From positions 1-5,961 of the IMG/VR virus record IMGVR_UViG_2585427746_000001: 5,961 nucleotides of DNA. One strand, given 5' to 3'. Shown piece after piece: positions 15-4,940 of the stretch; positions within the stretch are counted from its first letter, which is position 1, and each line of letters opens with the position of its first letter. Position numbers and translations under genes: made by a program. A model generated the notes under the pieces. That model had not been told where the DNA came from and did no database searches. It was given only the letters and a program-made list of their open reading frames with translations. This DNA comes from a virus. Lineage: Duplodnaviria; Heunggongvirae; Uroviricota; Caudoviricetes.

Positions 15-1517
15 ATGATTAACTTTGATTATATCGGCGATAACAATCGCATTCCGCTGGTACAGATTGAAATCAATAATTCAATGGCCGTGACCGGCAC
101 TCCACCACAGCGTCAGGCGGTACTGTTGTTTGGTCAGGCTGCAATGAAAGACACTACCATTCAGGGGCGCGGTCAGCTTGATGTACCAGTACGTATTACC
201 CGAGCTTCACAAGCAAGAGAACTCTGGGGGCGAGGTTCCATGATTGCACTGATGGTAGAGGAATTTATCGCCATTAACCCTGACACAGAGTTATATGCCA
301 TTGCACAGGGGGCTGGAACAGGTCAGTCCAGGGCATGCGTGATGAATATCATTGGAACAGCATTGGCAGACGGGGTGTTAAGTGTTTACATCGGCGGTCG
401 CCGTTACCTCCTGCCCGTCAGTAAGGGGAAAAAAGGTAAAGAGCTTGTGGAAGAGCTGGCTAAGGTCATTAACGCTGACACTGATGCGCCATTCACTGCT
501 ATCGCAGCTGAAGTCAGTGGTGATAATGCTGAAGGACTTAAAGGCAGCATGGGGGTTAACGCCCGCTTTATCGGTGAATGCTCAGCTCATGATTTACGGG
601 TGAACTATTATGACGGTGAAACTACACCGGCCGGTCTTACGCTGGAGCTCGTCGCGCCAACACAGAAGGCAACAAACCCCGATATCACCCGTAGCGTCTC
701 AGGGATGGGGAATCGTCAGTACAACTACATCGTCATGCCCTATAAGGATGCGGCAAATCTCAAAATTCTGGCGGATGAACTGCTGAAACGCTGGGGACCG
801 GTAAAAATGTCGGACGGTATGGTCTGGATGGCGCATACCGGCACCTTCGGTACGGCAACCAGTTTTGGTGAATCCCGTAATGACTTCCTGTTTACCTGCA
901 CTTCTATTCCTAAAGCACCAGAGCCGGATTATGTCTGGGCTGCCTCCATTTGTGCGGTCTGTGCGCCCTCCCTGTCAACGGATCCGGCCCGACCATTACA
1001 GACACTGGCGCTGCCTGCCCGTATGGCACCTGAAGCACCGGATCGTCTGACGCGGGAAGAGCGAAACAGCCTGCTTTATACCGGCATGTCCACGGTGACC
1101 GTCGCGGCCGCGGATGTGGTGCAGATTGAACGTCAGGTGACGATGTACCGTCAGAATGCATACGGCGAAATCGATCCCAGCTATCTGGATGTGGAAACCA
1201 TCTACACCCTGTCATATCTGCGTTATTCCCTGCGCACCTTTATCACGCAGCGTTTTCCGCGCCATAAACTGGCTGATGACGGGACGCCCGTTCGTGCCGG
1301 TCAGAATATCGTGACACCGGAGATCATGAAACTTCAGTTAATTTCGCTGGGGGAAGAATGGGTGGATCTGGGACTGGTCGAAAATCTGGACACCTTTAAA
1401 AAGAATCTGCTCGTGGAGCGCAACACAAAAGACCGTAACCGTCTGGATGTGATGTGTACACCGGATCTGGTTAACCAGTTCCGCTTCATGGCCGCGCAGA
1501 TCCGTTTCATTTTGTGA
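15..1517 (+). CDS. Contractile phage tail sheath protein (Mu gpL-like)
   Basis: 500-aa ORF with ATG at 15 preceded by AAGGGGA (1-7). Size and position immediately upstream of a small tube-like gene, a frameshifted chaperone pair and a tape measure gene match the canonical myovirus tail order. Family assignment is from recalled similarity and context, not a search. Confidence 0.8.
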   Translation: MINFDYIGDNNRIPLVQIEINNSMAVTGTPPQRQAVLLFGQAAMKDTTIQGRGQLDVPVRITRASQARELWGRGSMIALMVEEFIAINPDTELYAIAQGAGTGQSRACVMNIIGTALADGVLSVYIGGRRYLLPVSKGKKGKELVEELAKVINADTDAPFTAIAAEVSGDNAEGLKGSMGVNARFIGECSAHDLRVNYYDGETTPAGLTLELVAPTQKATNPDITRSVSGMGNRQYNYIVMPYKDAANLKILADELLKRWGPVKMSDGMVWMAHTGTFGTATSFGESRNDFLFTCTSIPKAPEPDYVWAASICAVCAPSLSTDPARPLQTLALPARMAPEAPDRLTREERNSLLYTGMSTVTVAAADVVQIERQVTMYRQNAYGEIDPSYLDVETIYTLSYLRYSLRTFITQRFPRHKLADDGTPVRAGQNIVTPEIMKLQLISLGEEWVDLGLVENLDTFKKNLLVERNTKDRNRLDVMCTPDLVNQFRFMAAQIRFIL

Positions 1518-1525
1518 GGTAAGGC

Positions 1526-1891
1526 ATGAGCGGAAAACAGTATCAGGGCACGGCCACCATCCGTGTGAACGGGCAGGAGTACGACACCCTTGAGGGGGCC
1601 ACGTTCTCCCCGTCCGGCTTTGAGCGTGAAGTGGTGAAAGGCGCGAAAGTTTACGGCTATCGCGAGAAACCCCGTGAGGCGACGCTGGACTGTAAATTCC
1701 CGGCGGGCGGAGAAGGTTCACCGGCTGCCGATGAAATCAACACCTGGACTGCGGTCACGATTGAGTTCGTGGCCGATACCGGTGAAGTCCACATGATGAC
1801 GAAGGCCTGGAGCAGTGAACCGGCCTCGCTTGACGGTGGTGGTGATATCTCCGCGAAGTTCGCCAGCGCCACCAGTACCCGTGTCCAGTAA
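1526..1891 (+). CDS. Phage tail tube protein (Mu gpM-like)
   Basis: 121-aa ORF starting 8 nt after the sheath stop, with GAGGT (1516-1520) upstream of the ATG. Small size and position between sheath and chaperone genes are typical of a myovirus tail tube. Confidence 0.7.
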   Translation: MSGKQYQGTATIRVNGQEYDTLEGATFSPSGFEREVVKGAKVYGYREKPREATLDCKFPAGGEGSPAADEINTWTAVTIEFVADTGEVHMMTKAWSSEPASLDGGGDISAKFASATSTRVQ

Positions 1892-1905: not shown

Positions 1906-2385
1906 ATGACCACACGTAAGAAAAAAACGGCGGTTTCTGACGAGGCCGTGATGGAGGCTATCCGGGATGCACTTGAAGACGGCGATCCCCGCACCGCCGG
2001 GCTGGCTGAACAGCTGGCGAACGGCTATGTGGATCTGCTCGACGGTCTGCCGTTCGGGGAATCCCGTGAATACCGCGTCACCTTCCGCGAACTGACGGCG
2101 AAAGACAGCATTGACGCGGAAACCGAGGCCGAGCGTCTTATGGAAACCCGAAATGGCGGCCCGGTTCTGATAGCCTCGCCGGCACTGCGCGGCATTGCAC
2201 TGCTGCGCCGTCAGATTGCCGCTGTTGGCCAGATTGAGGGGCCATTGTCTCCGCGTCAGATCGGACAGCTCAGCGAGCGCGATCTCTCCCGTCTGATGGC
2301 GGCAGTAAGCCTGCTTGATTCCGCGATGGCCGGAAAGCTGGTCGCTGAACGGGGGCGACCAGATGCAGTGCCGGGATCAGATTGA
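1906..2385 (+). CDS. Tail assembly chaperone (lambda gpG / Mu gp41 analogue), unshifted product
   Basis: 159-aa ORF directly upstream of the tape measure gene. AGGA (1894-1897) lies 8 nt before the ATG. A second ORF overlaps its 3' end in another frame, the hallmark of G/GT-type chaperone pairs. Confidence 0.65.
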   Translation: MTTRKKKTAVSDEAVMEAIRDALEDGDPRTAGLAEQLANGYVDLLDGLPFGESREYRVTFRELTAKDSIDAETEAERLMETRNGGPVLIASPALRGIALLRRQIAAVGQIEGPLSPRQIGQLSERDLSRLMAAVSLLDSAMAGKLVAERGRPDAVPGSD

Positions 2386-2509
2386 AGAAGCCGCAATTGT
2401 GCTGGGGATGGTGACAAAAAGCGGCCCGGAGTGGGCGCTTAACCTCCCCTTATCGCAGCTTTACCGGCACTGCCGACAGACCGAAAAAATTCTCAGAACG
2501 AAGCAGTAA
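1906..2509 (+). CDS. Predicted frameshift fusion product of the tail assembly chaperone (GT-like, about 201 aa) via a -2/+1 shift near 2351-2356
   Basis: Frame 2 is open from 2309 (upstream TAA at 2306-2308) to TAA at 2507-2509 and overlaps the chaperone 3' end (stop 2383-2385). The overlap contains CGGGGGC (2350-2356). The extension stops 3 nt before the tape measure ATG. Confidence 0.45.
2350..2356 (+). other. Candidate programmed ribosomal frameshift site (G5 tract CGGGGGC)
   Basis: In the zero frame the codons are CGG GGG CGA. A tRNA-Gly on GGG (2353-2355) can re-pair perfectly on GGG two nt upstream (2351-2353), placing the ribosome in the frame of the downstream extension ORF. It is the only strong homopolymer within the 2309-2385 overlap. 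Confidence 0.4.
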
Positions 2510-2512
2510 CCC

Positions 2513-4570
2513 ATGGCAAAAAACCTGAAAGCCTCCCTGATTGTCGATTTACTCGGCAATATTTCTGCCAAATCCCGCCAGTGGTCACAGGAGCTGGGGG
2601 CGTTCTCCCGTTCCGGCAGGACAGGCCTGGGTGGTCTTGGAAATGCAGCACGCCGGGCCGGTCAGGAAACAGAACTTGTCGGCTCCCGTATGCAGCGAAC
2701 GCTTGCCGGTGTTCGTGGCAGCATCCGCACGGTAACGTCAGATTTTGACCGCCTGCAGGGCAGCATTACCGGCACCATCGGGCGGATAAGCAACCTTTAC
2801 GGGATGCTGGCGGGAGGGGCTGCGGTCTACGGGTTTAATAAAGCCTTTATCCGCCCGGCCGCAGAGATGGAGAACTATATTCTGCGTCTCAACGCCATTA
2901 ATCATGGCGATACGGCAAAAATGGAAGCAGTGAAAGCCTGGGCAGTACAGAACGCCAAAGACACCACCTGGGGGCTGGCGGGGGTTATGCAGGAATACGC
3001 CTCCAGTCGCGGGTTTGGCATGAGTGACAGGGAAGCCCGTCGCTTTATTACCATGCTTCAGGATCAGGGCGGCTATCACGGCTGGTCACTGTCAGATGCA
3101 CAGGGTGCGTCCCTGCAACTCAAACAGATGTTTGCCCGCCAGAGTATCCAGGCAGCGGACGCCAATATTCTGACCGGATACGGGATTAACGTTTACCAGT
3201 TACTGGCCGATAAGCTGGGCGTAAACCAGAAGATCATCCGTGAGAAAGGCGAAAAAGGAAAACTGGGGCCGGACAGCATTCGCCTGTTATTTCAGGTGAT
3301 GGCCGAACAGGCAAAAGGTGCCCAGAAAAACGCCATGAATTCCTGGACGGGAATGACGTCCATGATGGGCGACGTCTGGGACGGATTTGCCCGCGAGGTG
3401 ATGGCAAAGGGACCGTTTGACAGCCTGAAAAAGAGCCTGAAAGGCTTCCTGGATTATGCCGATGCGGCACAGAAAAGCGGCTTACAGGATAAGCTGGCCA
3501 CACAGACGGCCTCAGCTCTGAATCAGGGATTTGAGTATGCCAGAGACGCTGCGACCGGCTTTTACCGGGTCATTCAGAAAGTCAGGGAAACGCTTCAGGC
3601 ACTGCGCGACGCCGGTTATGGCGATGCGCTGGATCGCATTGGTCAGGGTGCGCAGACCGCCGCAAAGTACCTGATGTATATGTATCTCGCCTCCCGTGCG
3701 CTGAAGGTGCTCAGGTTTGCGGGGACGGGGGCATTACGTCTCGGCGCAACCCCCTTACGCTATGGCATGGCGATGACCTCCGTGCTGACGTCGCCCTTCC
3801 GCAAACCGCAGACCACTGTACCGGGAACGCAGCCCGGACGCGCTGGCCGGTTCCTGAATTTCCTTACCGGGGTAAATCCGGCTGCCGTTCAGCCCGTGCT
3901 GGTCACCAACTGGCCTGCGGGTGGCCTGGCCTCAGGTGGCGGGGATGTGGTGGTCAGCGGTGACGGCAAAACCGTGCGCGGCCGTAAAAAACGCGGCCCC
4001 GGACGTGGACGGGGTGTCACGACCGTCGTGACTGCCGGTGAGCAACTGGCGGAGAGTGCCGGTAAACAGGGCTTCTTCGGTCGTATGATGAGCCGTGCCG
4101 GTGGTCTGCTAACGGCGGCCGGAAACCGCATGGGGCTGGGGCGTTTTGCCGGGCTGTTCCGTGGTGCCGGTCGGCTGGGTGGTGGTGCCCTGTGGGCCGG
4201 TGCCATGGCGGCTCCTGTACTGCTGGACAGCAGCGCCAGTGCAGCCGATAAAGCCGGTGCCGTGGGTTCTCTTGCCGGAAGTATCGCCGGTGGCGCGCTG
4301 GGGGCGGCTGCTGGTCCGGTCGGGGTTGCCATTGGTTCCACGGTGGGCAGCTATCTCGGTGATTATCTGGGGGGCTGGCTGACGCAGGCCTGGCAGAAAC
4401 TGCGTGGCGGCAGTGACGAAAACGGCGGACAGGCCACCGCGAAAACCGCCGCACGGGTGGAGCTTGTGGCCCCTGAAGGCTGGCGGGCGCGCAGTATTGA
4501 TGTGGATGATACCGCACAGCATGGCCTGGATGTGAACGTCTGGAACGGAGGGAACTATGGCCTCTACTGA
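2513..4570 (+). CDS. Tail tape measure protein
   Basis: 685-aa ORF immediately after the chaperone pair. The N-terminal two-thirds is rich in Ala/Gln/Lys/Arg, as in helical tape measure proteins. The C-terminal third is Gly/Ala-rich with GxxxG-type glycine-zipper stretches (e.g. GSLAGSIAGGALGAAAGPVGVAIGSTVGSYLGDYLGG). Confidence 0.85.
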   Translation: MAKNLKASLIVDLLGNISAKSRQWSQELGAFSRSGRTGLGGLGNAARRAGQETELVGSRMQRTLAGVRGSIRTVTSDFDRLQGSITGTIGRISNLYGMLAGGAAVYGFNKAFIRPAAEMENYILRLNAINHGDTAKMEAVKAWAVQNAKDTTWGLAGVMQEYASSRGFGMSDREARRFITMLQDQGGYHGWSLSDAQGASLQLKQMFARQSIQAADANILTGYGINVYQLLADKLGVNQKIIREKGEKGKLGPDSIRLLFQVMAEQAKGAQKNAMNSWTGMTSMMGDVWDGFAREVMAKGPFDSLKKSLKGFLDYADAAQKSGLQDKLATQTASALNQGFEYARDAATGFYRVIQKVRETLQALRDAGYGDALDRIGQGAQTAAKYLMYMYLASRALKVLRFAGTGALRLGATPLRYGMAMTSVLTSPFRKPQTTVPGTQPGRAGRFLNFLTGVNPAAVQPVLVTNWPAGGLASGGGDVVVSGDGKTVRGRKKRGPGRGRGVTTVVTAGEQLAESAGKQGFFGRMMSRAGGLLTAAGNRMGLGRFAGLFRGAGRLGGGALWAGAMAAPVLLDSSASAADKAGAVGSLAGSIAGGALGAAAGPVGVAIGSTVGSYLGDYLGGWLTQAWQKLRGGSDENGGQATAKTAARVELVAPEGWRARSIDVDDTAQHGLDVNVWNGGNYGLY
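4547..4552 (+). promoter_or_regulatory. Shine-Dalgarno sequence (GGAGGG) for the N-like gene, inside the tape measure 3' end
   Basis: GGAGGG lies 4-5 nt upstream of ATG 4557, within the last codons of the tape measure gene. Confidence 0.5.
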
Positions 4571-4940
4571 CACGCCGGGGCGTGGCTCCTTTCGTGGCGT
4601 ACCGTTCCTGGTTTATCAGGAGCAGCGGGAACGGGGCGGACGTAACATTGTGCGCCGTGAATACCCACTGCGTGAAAGCGGCGGTGCGGATGATCTGGGG
4701 CCAAAACTCCCGGAGTTCACATTCACGGTTCTAGTGACCGGAGACGATCTTCAGACACAGCGAAGCCGCCTGCGTGATGCGCTGCGTGCACCCGGTGCCG
4801 GTGAACTGATGCACCCGGATTACGGCACGTTAAACGTGCTGATAAACAGCTTTGAAACAGCCGCCGCTGGCAGTATTTTGTCCGCAGAAACAATATCCCC
4901 GATCCGGTTTTTGTTCCGGGTGGCCGCCGCGTGGAGGTGA
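4557..4940 (+). CDS. DNA circularization protein (Mu N-like), N-terminal domain only; apparently truncated
   Basis: 127-aa ORF with ATG at 4557 preceded by GGAGGG (4547-4552), overlapping the tape measure 3' end by 14 nt. The N-terminal sequence (GSFRGVPF..., ELMHPDYG...) resembles the DNA_circ_N family as I recall it. It ends at TGA 4938-4940, far shorter than the roughly 400-500 aa I expect for full-length homologues. Confidence 0.55.
4933..4937 (+). promoter_or_regulatory. Shine-Dalgarno sequence (GGAGG) for the gpP-like gene, overlapping the stop of the N-like ORF
   Basis: GGAGG sits 6 nt upstream of GTG 4944. The TGA stop of the upstream ORF (4938-4940) directly abuts it, suggesting translational coupling. 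Confidence 0.55.

What the first reader, a model, noticed from the sequence alone, without database searches (positions are those of the whole stretch)
2309..2509. Candidate -2 (net +1) programmed frameshift in the tail assembly chaperone gene at a G5 tract
The chaperone ORF (stop 2383-2385) is overlapped by a second frame that is open from 2309 to 2509 and ends 3 nt before the tape measure start. The overlap contains CGGGGGC (2350-2356), where tRNA-Gly on GGG can slip back two nucleotides onto an identical GGG. Most phage G/GT pairs use -1 frameshifting. A -2 shift has been proposed for phage Mu as I recall it, so this geometry fits a Mu-like element and would give a fusion of about 201 aa.
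Basis: partly seen in the sequence, partly recalled or inferred. Interest (0 to 1): 0.45.

Follow-up and report, generated by a model that had tools for sequence, protein, structure and literature searches.

The report
Mu-type -2 frameshift in tail chaperone
This is the same backward-by-two ribosomal frameshift signal that was shown experimentally in phage Mu, here in a Mu-like E. coli prophage. It should make a small amount of a 201-aa fusion protein needed for tail assembly, so it is a known kind of signal that is not annotated in this lineage.

Summary
The 159-aa ORF (1906-2385) is a Mu gp41-family tail assembly chaperone lying between the tube and tape-measure genes. The +1/-2 frame is open 2309-2509, and CGG_GGG_CGA sits in phase at 2350-2358. 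Phage Mu has the identical GAACGGGGGCGA, and its GenBank record calls the -2 frameshift verified (Xu et al. 2004).

In 100 distinct relatives from enterobacteria, Pasteurella, Vibrio, Shewanella, Aeromonas and Marinomonas, GGG and the rare CGA codon are invariant. The base before GGG is always G. The +1/-2 frame always carries a conserved ~50-aa extension up to the tape-measure start, and the -1 frame closes early. Stop codons across the family confine the frame change to about 14 nt around the motif.

One refinement: the published Mu model is tandem slippage that also involves the A-site tRNA-Arg on CGA.

One addition: a stable helix begins 6 nt after CGA (window 2365-2374 with 2464-2473). 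A helix at that position recurs in most clades, with different sequences and pairing registers. It is a likely 3' stimulator that I did not find described.

Verdict: new member of a known kind, low interest.

The parts
15..1517 (+). Tail sheath gene (context: Mu gpL homologue)
   Evidence: Pfam Phage_sheath_1 at 5.7e-34; phrog_165 at 4.6e-195
1526..1891 (+). Tail tube gene (context: Mu gpM homologue)
   Evidence: Pfam Tail_tube at 3.4e-30; phrog_185
1906..2385 (+). Tail assembly chaperone ORF, zero frame, 159 aa (Mu gp41 homologue; analogue of lambda gpG)
   Evidence: Pfam PF23746 Gp41_Mu at 1.2e-32; phrog_508 tail assembly chaperone at 2.7e-44. tblastn gives 48% identity to Mu gp41.
2350..2358 (+). 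Slip site CGG_GGG_CGA (core GG_GGG_CGA at 2351-2358). P-site GGG is 2353-2355 and A-site CGA is 2356-2358.
   Evidence: Identical to the verified Mu site. In 100 distinct relatives GGG is 100/100, CGA is 100/100, the preceding base is G in 100/100 and the base before that is G in 89/100. Family-wide stop codons confine the shift to -8..+6 around GGG.
2354..2509 (+). -2/+1-frame extension (T-like domain, about 50 aa), read after the shift and ending at TAA 2507-2509, 3 nt before the tape-measure ATG
   Evidence: phrog_12783 at 1.1e-38. The extension is conserved at protein level from the junction onward in all clades. It is colinear with the Mu FS-gp41 extension.
2359..2364 (+). 6-nt spacer (CCAGAU), predicted unpaired
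   Evidence: Pairing probability is about 0 at +1..+6.
2365..2374 (+). 5' arm (GCAGUGCCGG) of the candidate 3' stimulatory helix
   Evidence: Perfect 10-bp inverted repeat with 2464-2473, duplex -20 kcal/mol, present in both MFE and centroid folds. 99.6% of cells pair in 26 distinct sequences of the window/Mu clade.
2464..2473 (+). 3' arm (CCGGCACUGC) of the candidate helix, 89 nt downstream of the 5' arm, inside the extension ORF
   Evidence: Its codons TAC, CAC and TGC are the only eligible codons in the single-coding part of the extension that show no synonymous variation.
2513..4570 (+). Tape measure protein gene (context)
   Evidence: Pfam TMP_3 at 1.6e-17; phrog_973 at 1.9e-198

Best explanation
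The element is a Mu-type programmed -2 ribosomal frameshift cassette at the 3' end of the tail assembly chaperone gene.

Most ribosomes read CGG GGG CGA CCA ... and stop at 2383-2385, giving the 159-aa chaperone. This is the analogue of lambda gpG.

A minority shift while tRNA-Gly sits on GGG (2353-2355) in the P site and tRNA-Arg(ICG) sits on the rare codon CGA (2356-2358) in the A site. Both slip back 2 nt. tRNA-Gly re-pairs perfectly with GGG (2351-2353). tRNA-Arg re-pairs at 2 of 3 positions with GGC (2354-2356), whereas it would have no pairs in the -1 frame.

Reading then continues from GAC (2357) to TAA (2507-2509). The product is a 201-aa fusion ...VAERGR-DQMQCRDQIEE... that carries a 50-aa T-like domain, the analogue of lambda gpGT.

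By analogy with lambda and Mu, the shared N-terminal part coats the tape measure protein, and the rare extension recruits tail-tube subunits. The frameshift sets the ratio of the two products.

A stable helix whose 5' arm starts 6 nt after CGA (2365-2374 with 2464-2473) probably resists unwinding and promotes or tunes the backward slip.

What is shown here: homology, the motif, frame geometry, conservation, and the predicted helix. What is inferred: that the shift happens in this element, its direction and efficiency, and the role of the helix.
For: Homology and context:
- Gp41_Mu family membership and sheath-tube-chaperone-TMP synteny.
- Identical GAACGGGGGCGA in Mu, with a joined CDS annotated 'verified -2 translational frameshift'.

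Literature on Mu:
- Tandem -2 slippage on GG GGG CGA with tRNA-Arg 3'-GCI-5' (PMC3458567).
- -2 frameshifting is used in decoding Mu (PMC5009743).
- Efficiency estimated at about 2.2% (PMC3498833).
- The Mu 10-mer alone gave 14% shift into the -2/+1 frame in PURExpress (bioRxiv 10.1101/2025.10.02.679949).

Comparative evidence from 100 distinct relatives with chaperones as little as 33% identical to the window's:
- GGG and CGA are invariant and the preceding base is always G. This holds even when that codon is Lys AAG, Ser TCG or Gln CAG, where it is a synonymous position.
- The +1/-2 frame is always open up to, or slightly past, the TMP start and encodes a conserved peptide starting exactly at the motif.
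- The -1 frame closes early.
- Stop codons bound the shift window to -8..+6 nt around GGG. L140 reads GGG CGA TAA.
- In L039 a one-G deletion fuses the two ORFs in frame.
- The window fusion is colinear with the Mu fusion.

Helix:
- Pairing probability rises from 0.3-0.5 at +1..+6 to 0.85-0.96 at +7..+16 in 25 clade representatives, against a flat 0.57 at control positions.
- 21 of 25 representatives fall in the top 10% of in-locus controls.
- In 15 of 25 representatives, at most 5% of synonymous recodings of the extension ORF reach the native pairing.
Against: - There is no experiment on this element.
- The direction (-2 rather than +1) rests on the Mu experiment, which I could not read, and on conservation of the upstream G's.
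- 11 of 100 relatives have only G4 (AAG, TCG or CAG before GGG_CGA). In these the P-site tRNA would re-pair with a first-position mismatch.
- Public databases disagree on the Mu junction residue. GenBank UIW09302.1 has ...ERGR|EWL, and UniProt P0DJY4 has ...ERGG|EWL.

Against the helix specifically:
- Covariation within the window/Mu clade is uninformative (207 of 500 shuffles reach the observed score).
- RNAalifold finds no family-wide consensus, because pairing registers differ between clades.
- The whole-region fold of the window is not unusually stable (z = -0.18).
- Four representatives lack the helix: Klebsiella-type L017 and L029, Pmp9 (L016) and B23 (L018).
- I chose the +7..+16 interval after seeing the folds.
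- The Mu 10-mer shifts without any helix in vitro.

This prophage copy also carries a 953-bp deletion in the downstream gp43 gene, so the tail module may no longer be functional here.
Confidence: 0.85

Rival explanations
1. +1 frameshift at the same place. With tRNA-Gly on GGG in the P site and the slowly decoded rare CGA codon (I:A wobble) in an empty A site, tRNA-Gly slips forward onto GGC. Reading resumes at GAC and gives a 200-aa fusion ...AERG-DQMQCR...
For: A +1 shift reaches the same frame. GGG and CGA are invariant, as a 'hungry codon' model would need. Reporter assays cannot separate -2 from +1. The G4 variants weaken -2 re-pairing. Assemblies with a one-G deletion encode just this 187-aa-type product for Mu (P0003 and P0008).
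Against: Mu is annotated and reviewed as a verified -2 shift. The base 5' of GGG is G in 100/100 relatives, including at synonymous third positions of Lys, Ser and Gln codons, and the next base upstream is G in 89/100. A +1 slip does not need these bases. A helix 6 nt downstream is the classic stimulator of backward slippage, not forward.
Confidence: 0.07
2. The downstream frame is a separate small gene (a 'gp41.5'), translated on its own from ATG 2363 with the G5 tract acting as its Shine-Dalgarno sequence. No frameshift is involved.
For: ATG 2363-2365 is in the +1 frame, 7 nt after GGGGG. D108 annotates a separate '41.5' CDS. Some E. coli records-aa hypothetical proteins from this frame (P0016 and P0020).
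Against: Mu has no ATG there, and D108's '41.5' has to start at CTG. Only 53 of 100 relatives have an ATG in the first 15 codons after the motif. Peptide conservation starts at the motif itself (G-[DE]-...), upstream of any such start. Independent initiation does not explain the invariant in-phase GGG_CGA, nor the family-wide confinement of the frame junction to the motif.
Confidence: 0.03
3. Transcriptional slippage. RNA polymerase stutters on the G5 run and makes some mRNAs with one G fewer or two G more, which encode the fusion in frame.
For: A homopolymer lies exactly at the junction. One-G-shorter versions exist in assemblies (L039, P0003, P0008), although these are DNA-level variants or sequencing errors.
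Against: From established knowledge, known bacterial slippage sites are runs of about 7 or more A or T (background in PMC5009743). This run is only 5 G, and 4 G in 11% of relatives. Slippage does not explain the invariant CGA codon, the fixed phase of the run, or the helix 6 nt downstream.
Confidence: 0.03

Closest known systems
Phage Mu gp41 / FS-gp41 (Mu_41 / Mu_56) -2 programmed frameshift (Xu, Hendrix & Duda 2004), also reported for FluMu
   Same: Homologous chaperone (Pfam Gp41_Mu). Same position between the tube and tape-measure genes. Identical 12-nt GAACGGGGGCGA in the same phase. Homologous 50-aa extension in the +1/-2 frame. Homologous downstream helix (GCGGUGCCGG / CCGGCACUGC in Mu)..
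   Different: The chaperone is only 48-49% identical to Mu's and has a longer N-terminus (159 aa against 144 aa). The zero frame runs 9 codons past CGA rather than 7. The window has an ATG in the extension frame that Mu lacks. The window fusion is absent from a collection of about 15 billion proteins, and PGAP does not annotate the extension in the near-identical E. coli HH35 copy. It has not been tested experimentally.
Lambda gpG/gpGT and P2 gpE/E+E' tail chaperone -1 frameshifts
   Same: Same biological logic and gene position: two nested chaperone products at a fixed ratio, made by a frameshift just upstream of the tape measure gene (PMC5009743).
   Different: Those use -1 tandem slippage on an X_XXY_YYZ heptamer. 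Here the -1 frame closes after 20 codons, there is no such heptamer, and the shift is to the +1/-2 frame. There is no detectable sequence homology to lambda G.
Arterivirus nsp2TF -2 frameshift and -2 shifting on the HIV U6A site at short spacers
   Same: Backward slip by two nucleotides. Dependence on a 3' element at a short distance is the established theme (PMC3458567; PMC5009743).
   Different: These are eukaryotic ribosomes and U-rich slip sites. The arterivirus stimulator is a protein-RNA complex. Here the site is G-rich and the candidate stimulator is a simple long-range helix.

Membership tests
Mu-type gp41 -2 frameshift cassette | Chaperone homologous to Mu gp41, encoded between the tail tube and tape measure genes | tested here: met
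   PF23746 Gp41_Mu at 1.2e-32; order sheath-tube-chaperone-TMP
Mu-type gp41 -2 frameshift cassette | [quoted passage not shown] | tested here: met
   CGG GGG CGA at 2350-2358, identical to Mu L001 1858-1866
Mu-type gp41 -2 frameshift cassette | +1/-2 frame open from the motif to the tape-measure start and encoding a homologue of the Mu extension; -1 frame closed | tested here: met
   Open 2309-2509; phrog_12783 at 1e-38; colinear with Mu FS-gp41; -1 frame ends at 2414
Mu-type gp41 -2 frameshift cassette | A fusion protein is actually made, with the junction showing a -2 (not +1) shift | not testable with these tools
   Needs expression and mass spectrometry. It is only shown for Mu, according to the GenBank note and reviews. 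The primary paper is not held.
Lambda G/GT-type -1 frameshift | X_XXY_YYZ heptamer, with a long -1-frame ORF reaching the tape measure gene | tested here: not met
   The -1 frame is open only 2349-2414 and ends 98 nt before the TMP start. There is no such heptamer at the junction.
prfB (RF2)-type +1 frameshift | In-frame stop codon in the A site, with a Shine-Dalgarno stimulator about 3 nt upstream of the slip codon | tested here: not met
   The A-site codon is the sense codon CGA in 100/100 relatives. There is no separate upstream SD; the G run is the slip site itself.
Transcriptional slippage sites | Long homopolymeric A or T run (about 7 or more) at the junction | tested here: not met
   The run is G5, and G4 in 11 of 100 relatives
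Rfam frameshift or other RNA families | Match to a curated covariance model | tested here: not met
   Only two chance-level snoRNA hits, E = 1.2 and 5.5, far below gathering scores

The most novel reading that the evidence does not exclude
The Mu-type -2 cassette has three parts rather than being just a slippery G run: [G]G_GGG_CGA, a 6-nt spacer, and a helix arm of about 10 bp at +7..+16.

The position of the helix is maintained by selection across Mu-like phages of enterobacteria, Vibrio, Shewanella, Aeromonas and Marinomonas. Its sequence, 3' partner and loop size (about 45 to 89 nt) change between clades.

This would be a 3' stimulator or tuner of the only well-established natural bacterial -2 frameshift. 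I found no description of it in the searchable literature, but the primary 2004 paper could not be read.
Probability: 0.4. Interest if true: 0.4.

Novelty: new member of a known kind. Interest (0 to 1): 0.2.

Why it matters
For this element the value is mainly in annotation. RefSeq PGAP leaves a 127-nt unannotated gap in the near-identical E. coli HH35 copy, and other records call the extension a separate hypothetical protein (D108 '41.5'; 60-aa E. coli ORFs). The real product is a gp41 fusion needed for tail assembly.

The comparative survey gives a simple, highly specific rule for annotating such genes in Mu-like phages and prophages: an in-phase G_GGG_CGA within about 45 nt of the chaperone stop.

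If the positionally conserved helix 6 nt downstream is functional, it gives a tractable bacterial system for studying how spacer length and mRNA tension select -2 over -1 slippage.

Tried and rejected
- **Primary paper.** Xu et al. 2004 is not held, so the Mu evidence comes from the GenBank note and from reviews.
- **Distant loci.** A 5-sequence one worked.
- **Family-wide structure.** RNAalifold on the Vibrio/Aeromonas-type alignments found no helix downstream of the motif. Only clade-level alignments gave one.
- **Covariation.** Counting on the window/Mu-clade helix was uninformative: 7 of 10 pairs never vary, and 207 of 500 shuffles reach the observed score.
- **First positional control.** It used 100-nt folds, which cut off the window's 3' arm, and it timed out. 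I repeated it with 140 nt.
- **Rfam.** No family matched.
- **Literature search.** A search for the motif string returned only unrelated papers.
- **Second motif copy.** The in-phase TGG GGG CGA in the sheath gene is chance. It is absent from Mu, the -2 frame stops after 4 codons, and there is no spaced helix.
- **Rival mechanisms.** I considered independent initiation, a +1 shift and transcriptional slippage, and judged them unlikely. They are listed under the rival explanations.

Full report
**What is in the window**

The window is the tail module of a Mu-like myophage or prophage:
- tail sheath, 15-1517
- tail tube, 1526-1891
- a 159-aa ORF, 1906-2385, matching Pfam PF23746 'Tail assembly protein gp41' (Gp41_Mu, 1.2e-32) and phrog_508 'tail assembly chaperone'
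- tape measure protein, 2513-4570
- a truncated gp43-like gene, 4557-4940

The DNA is 99% identical to prophages in E. coli chromosomes and 91% identical to Mu-like inserts in Stx phages. The exact chaperone protein occurs on 842 public contigs, named 'FluMu protein gp41'.

**Checking the observation**

- The zero-frame stop is at 2383-2385.
- The +1/-2 frame has TAA at 2306-2308 and is open from 2309 to TAA at 2507-2509, 3 nt before the tape-measure ATG at 2513.
- CGGGGGC is at 2350-2356, read as CGG(2350) GGG(2353) CGA(2356).
- A -2 slip moves tRNA-Gly from GGG 2353-2355 onto GGG 2351-2353.
- The fusion is 201 aa (22 kDa), against 159 aa (17 kDa) for the unshifted product.
- The -1 frame closes at 2414.

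In this window alone none of this exceeds chance. GGGGGCGA occurs twice against 0.35 expected, and G5 runs are fewer than expected. The case therefore rests on comparison.

**Link to phage Mu**

Mu gp41 is 48-49% identical to the window chaperone. At the homologous position Mu has the identical 12-mer GAACGGGGGCGA in the same phase.

The literature I could read says:
- -2 frameshifting is used in decoding Mu (PMC5009743).
- The event is tandem -2 slippage on GG GGG CGA. The A-site tRNA-Arg (3'-GCI-5') makes better contacts in the -2 frame than in the -1 frame (PMC3458567).
- Efficiency is estimated at about 2.2% (PMC3498833).
- The Mu 10-mer alone gave 14% shifting into the -2/+1 frame in a purified E. 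coli system (bioRxiv 10.1101/2025.10.02.679949).

The primary paper is not held. The conceptual window fusion aligns without a gap through the junction with the Mu fusion.

**Comparative test**

I gathered 173 loci encoding gp41 relatives from annotated phages, IMG/VR and GTDB genomes. They gave 100 distinct 3' ends that could be scored. Hosts include Escherichia/Shigella, Klebsiella/Raoultella, Pantoea, Pasteurella, Aeromonas, Vibrio, Shewanella, Marinomonas and Alteromonadaceae. Some chaperones are only 33% identical to the window's.

Results:
- The P-site codon is GGG in 100/100.
- The A-site codon is the rare CGA in 100/100.
- The codon before is CGG in 83, AGG in 6, AAG in 7, TCG in 3 and CAG in 1.
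- So the base 5' of GGG is always G, even as a synonymous third position of Lys, Ser or Gln codons. The base before that is G in 89%.
- In a gapless 49-sequence alignment, GGGGGCGA is the only invariant block.
- The +1/-2 frame always runs on to within a few nt of, or slightly past, the tape-measure start. It encodes a 46-53-aa peptide that is conserved from the motif onward (G-[DE]-...). The -1 frame closes early.
- Taking all sequences together, a +1-frame stop ends 9 nt before GGG in many of them, and in L140 the zero-frame stop directly follows CGA. The frame change must therefore happen within about 14 nt centred on the motif.

Four loci gave no in-phase motif. I examined two. L027 keeps the motif but has an upstream frameshift. 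In L039 the run is one G shorter, and the chaperone and extension are fused in one frame, which marks the junction independently. L172 and L173 were not examined.

**Mechanism and its rivals**

The invariance of CGA and of the G's 5' of GGG is what tandem -2 re-pairing predicts: GGG to GGG, and CGA to GGC with 2 of 3 pairs, against none in the -1 frame.

- **A +1 slip** needs GGG_C and a slow CGA but not the upstream G's, so it is less likely. Without the junction peptide it cannot be excluded. The 11% of G4 variants re-pair less well in the -2 model.
- **Independent initiation** at ATG 2363 with the G run as SD is possible on paper for the window. It is not conserved. Mu has no ATG there, D108's '41.5' CDS had to start at CTG, and only 53 of 100 relatives have an ATG in the first 15 codons.
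- **Transcriptional slippage** on a run of 4 or 5 G does not explain the fixed phase, the CGA codon, or the downstream helix.

Public databases hold two versions of the Mu fusion...ERGR|EWL (GenBank UIW09302.1) and ...ERGG|EWL (UniProt P0DJY4).

**A downstream helix**

In the window, GCAGUGCCGG (2365-2374) pairs perfectly with CCGGCACUGC (2464-2473). The duplex energy is -20 kcal/mol. The helix starts 6 nt after CGA and appears in both MFE and centroid folds.

Mu has the homologous helix with one G.U pair, and its region folds unusually well (z = -3.0). The window's whole region does not (z = -0.18).

In 26 distinct sequences of the window/Mu clade, 99.6% of cells pair. There is one compensatory change (U-A) and one mismatch. 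Covariation is statistically uninformative, because most pairs never vary. The 3' arm codons TAC, CAC and TGC are the only eligible codons in the single-coding part of the extension with no synonymous variation at all.

Other clades have different helices that start at the same place, for example:
- UCAGCUGGUUGA / UCAACCGAGCUGA in Aeromonas-type loci
- GGCGCU / AGCGUC and CUGAUGG / CCAUCAG in Vibrio-type loci
- AAGUCGCUGACU / AGUCAGCGAUUU in Vibrio phage 1.028.O

Across 25 clade representatives:
- Mean pairing probability is 0.3-0.5 at +1..+6, 0.85-0.96 at +7..+16 and about 0.4 at +19..+25. Control in-phase positions are flat at 0.57.
- 21 of 25 sites rank in the top 10% of in-locus controls.
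- In 15 of 25, at most 5% of synonymous recodings of the extension ORF reach the native pairing. For the window 2% do.

Caveats:
- I chose the interval after seeing the folds.
- The representatives are related to each other.
- RNAalifold finds no family-wide consensus, because registers differ. It does find one within clades.
- The two Klebsiella-type representatives (L017, L029), Pmp9 (L016) and B23 (L018) lack the signal.
- The Mu 10-mer alone shifts in vitro.

A 6-nt spacer lies within the range typical of bacterial 3' stimulators (my own knowledge). Lin et al. found that shorter spacers favour -2 over -1. I found no description of such an element for Mu in the searchable library, and no Rfam family matches.

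**Verdict**

This is a new, unannotated member of a known kind. None of the three possible fusion sequences is present in a collection of about 15 billion proteins. PGAP leaves the extension unannotated in the near-identical E. coli HH35 copy.

A specialist would not be surprised, so interest is low. The positionally conserved 3' helix is the one possibly new detail and deserves a reporter assay.

Noticed in passing
window 4856/4857 (ORF 4557-4940): Compared with the 99%-identical prophage in E. coli HH35, the window lacks 953 bp (L015 5055-6007) inside the gp43 'DNA circularization protein' gene. The gene is left frameshifted and truncated at 127 aa, so this prophage copy is probably defective in baseplate/tail assembly.
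   Followed up: partly
window 225-233 (sheath gene): A second in-phase copy of the slip motif, TGG GGG CGA (W-G-R), lies in the sheath ORF. It is not conserved in Mu (AAFGQGSM there), the -2 frame stops after 4 codons, and no helix starts at +7. It looks like chance, but it could cause low-level abortive shifting.
   Followed up: yes
L039 1500-1660 (Marinomonas rhodophyticola); proteins P0003, P0008: The G run is one G shorter (CGGGGCGA), so the chaperone and extension are fused in a single frame. Two 187-aa Mu-type fusions from SRA assemblies show the same thing. These could be real hard-wired variants or homopolymer sequencing errors.
   Followed up: partly
Mu proteins UIW09302.1 and UniProt P0DJY4 (P0001, P0002): The two public versions of the Mu frameshift product differ at the junction residue...ERGR-EWL in GenBank and ...ERGG-EWL in UniProt. 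They correspond to the tandem and the P-site-only slip models.
   Followed up: no
L012, L014, L059-L063, L068 (AAG GGG CGA); L022, L089, L090 (TCG GGG CGA); L066 (CAG GGG CGA): 11 of 100 distinct relatives have only four G's. The extension ORF and the helix are intact. The P-site tRNA would re-pair with a first-position mismatch after a -2 slip. These are natural variants for testing -2 against +1.
   Followed up: partly
window 2338-2345 with 2355-2362: A perfect 8-bp inverted repeat (CTGGTCGC / GCGACCAG) has a 3' arm that covers the last G of the run, the CGA codon and the first four spacer bases. Its conservation was not examined.
   Followed up: no
L017, L023-L026, L029, L092-L119 (Klebsiella/Raoultella-type): Only L017 and L029 entered the quantitative pairing tests; neither shows the +7..+16 helix signal. 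Plain MFE folds of L017, L026, L029 and L092 show a small hairpin from about +1..+3 and a strong hairpin about 70 nt downstream. The other listed loci were not folded. Pmp9 (L016) and B23 (L018) also lack the +7 helix.
   Followed up: partly
L002 1871-2017 (D108 '41.5'); E. coli proteins P0016, P0020; L015 2583-2709: The extension frame is annotated inconsistently. D108 calls it a separate CDS with a CTG start. Some E. coli records call it a 60-aa hypothetical protein from an upstream ATG. PGAP annotates nothing there, leaving a 127-nt gap.
   Followed up: yes
L128 (IMG/VR Vibrio-type locus): The extension ORF is cut short (GDLKLMAEVAEGLQLAHQCDTSN...*), apparently by an internal deletion that removes part of the hairpin region. 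This is probably a decayed copy.
   Followed up: no
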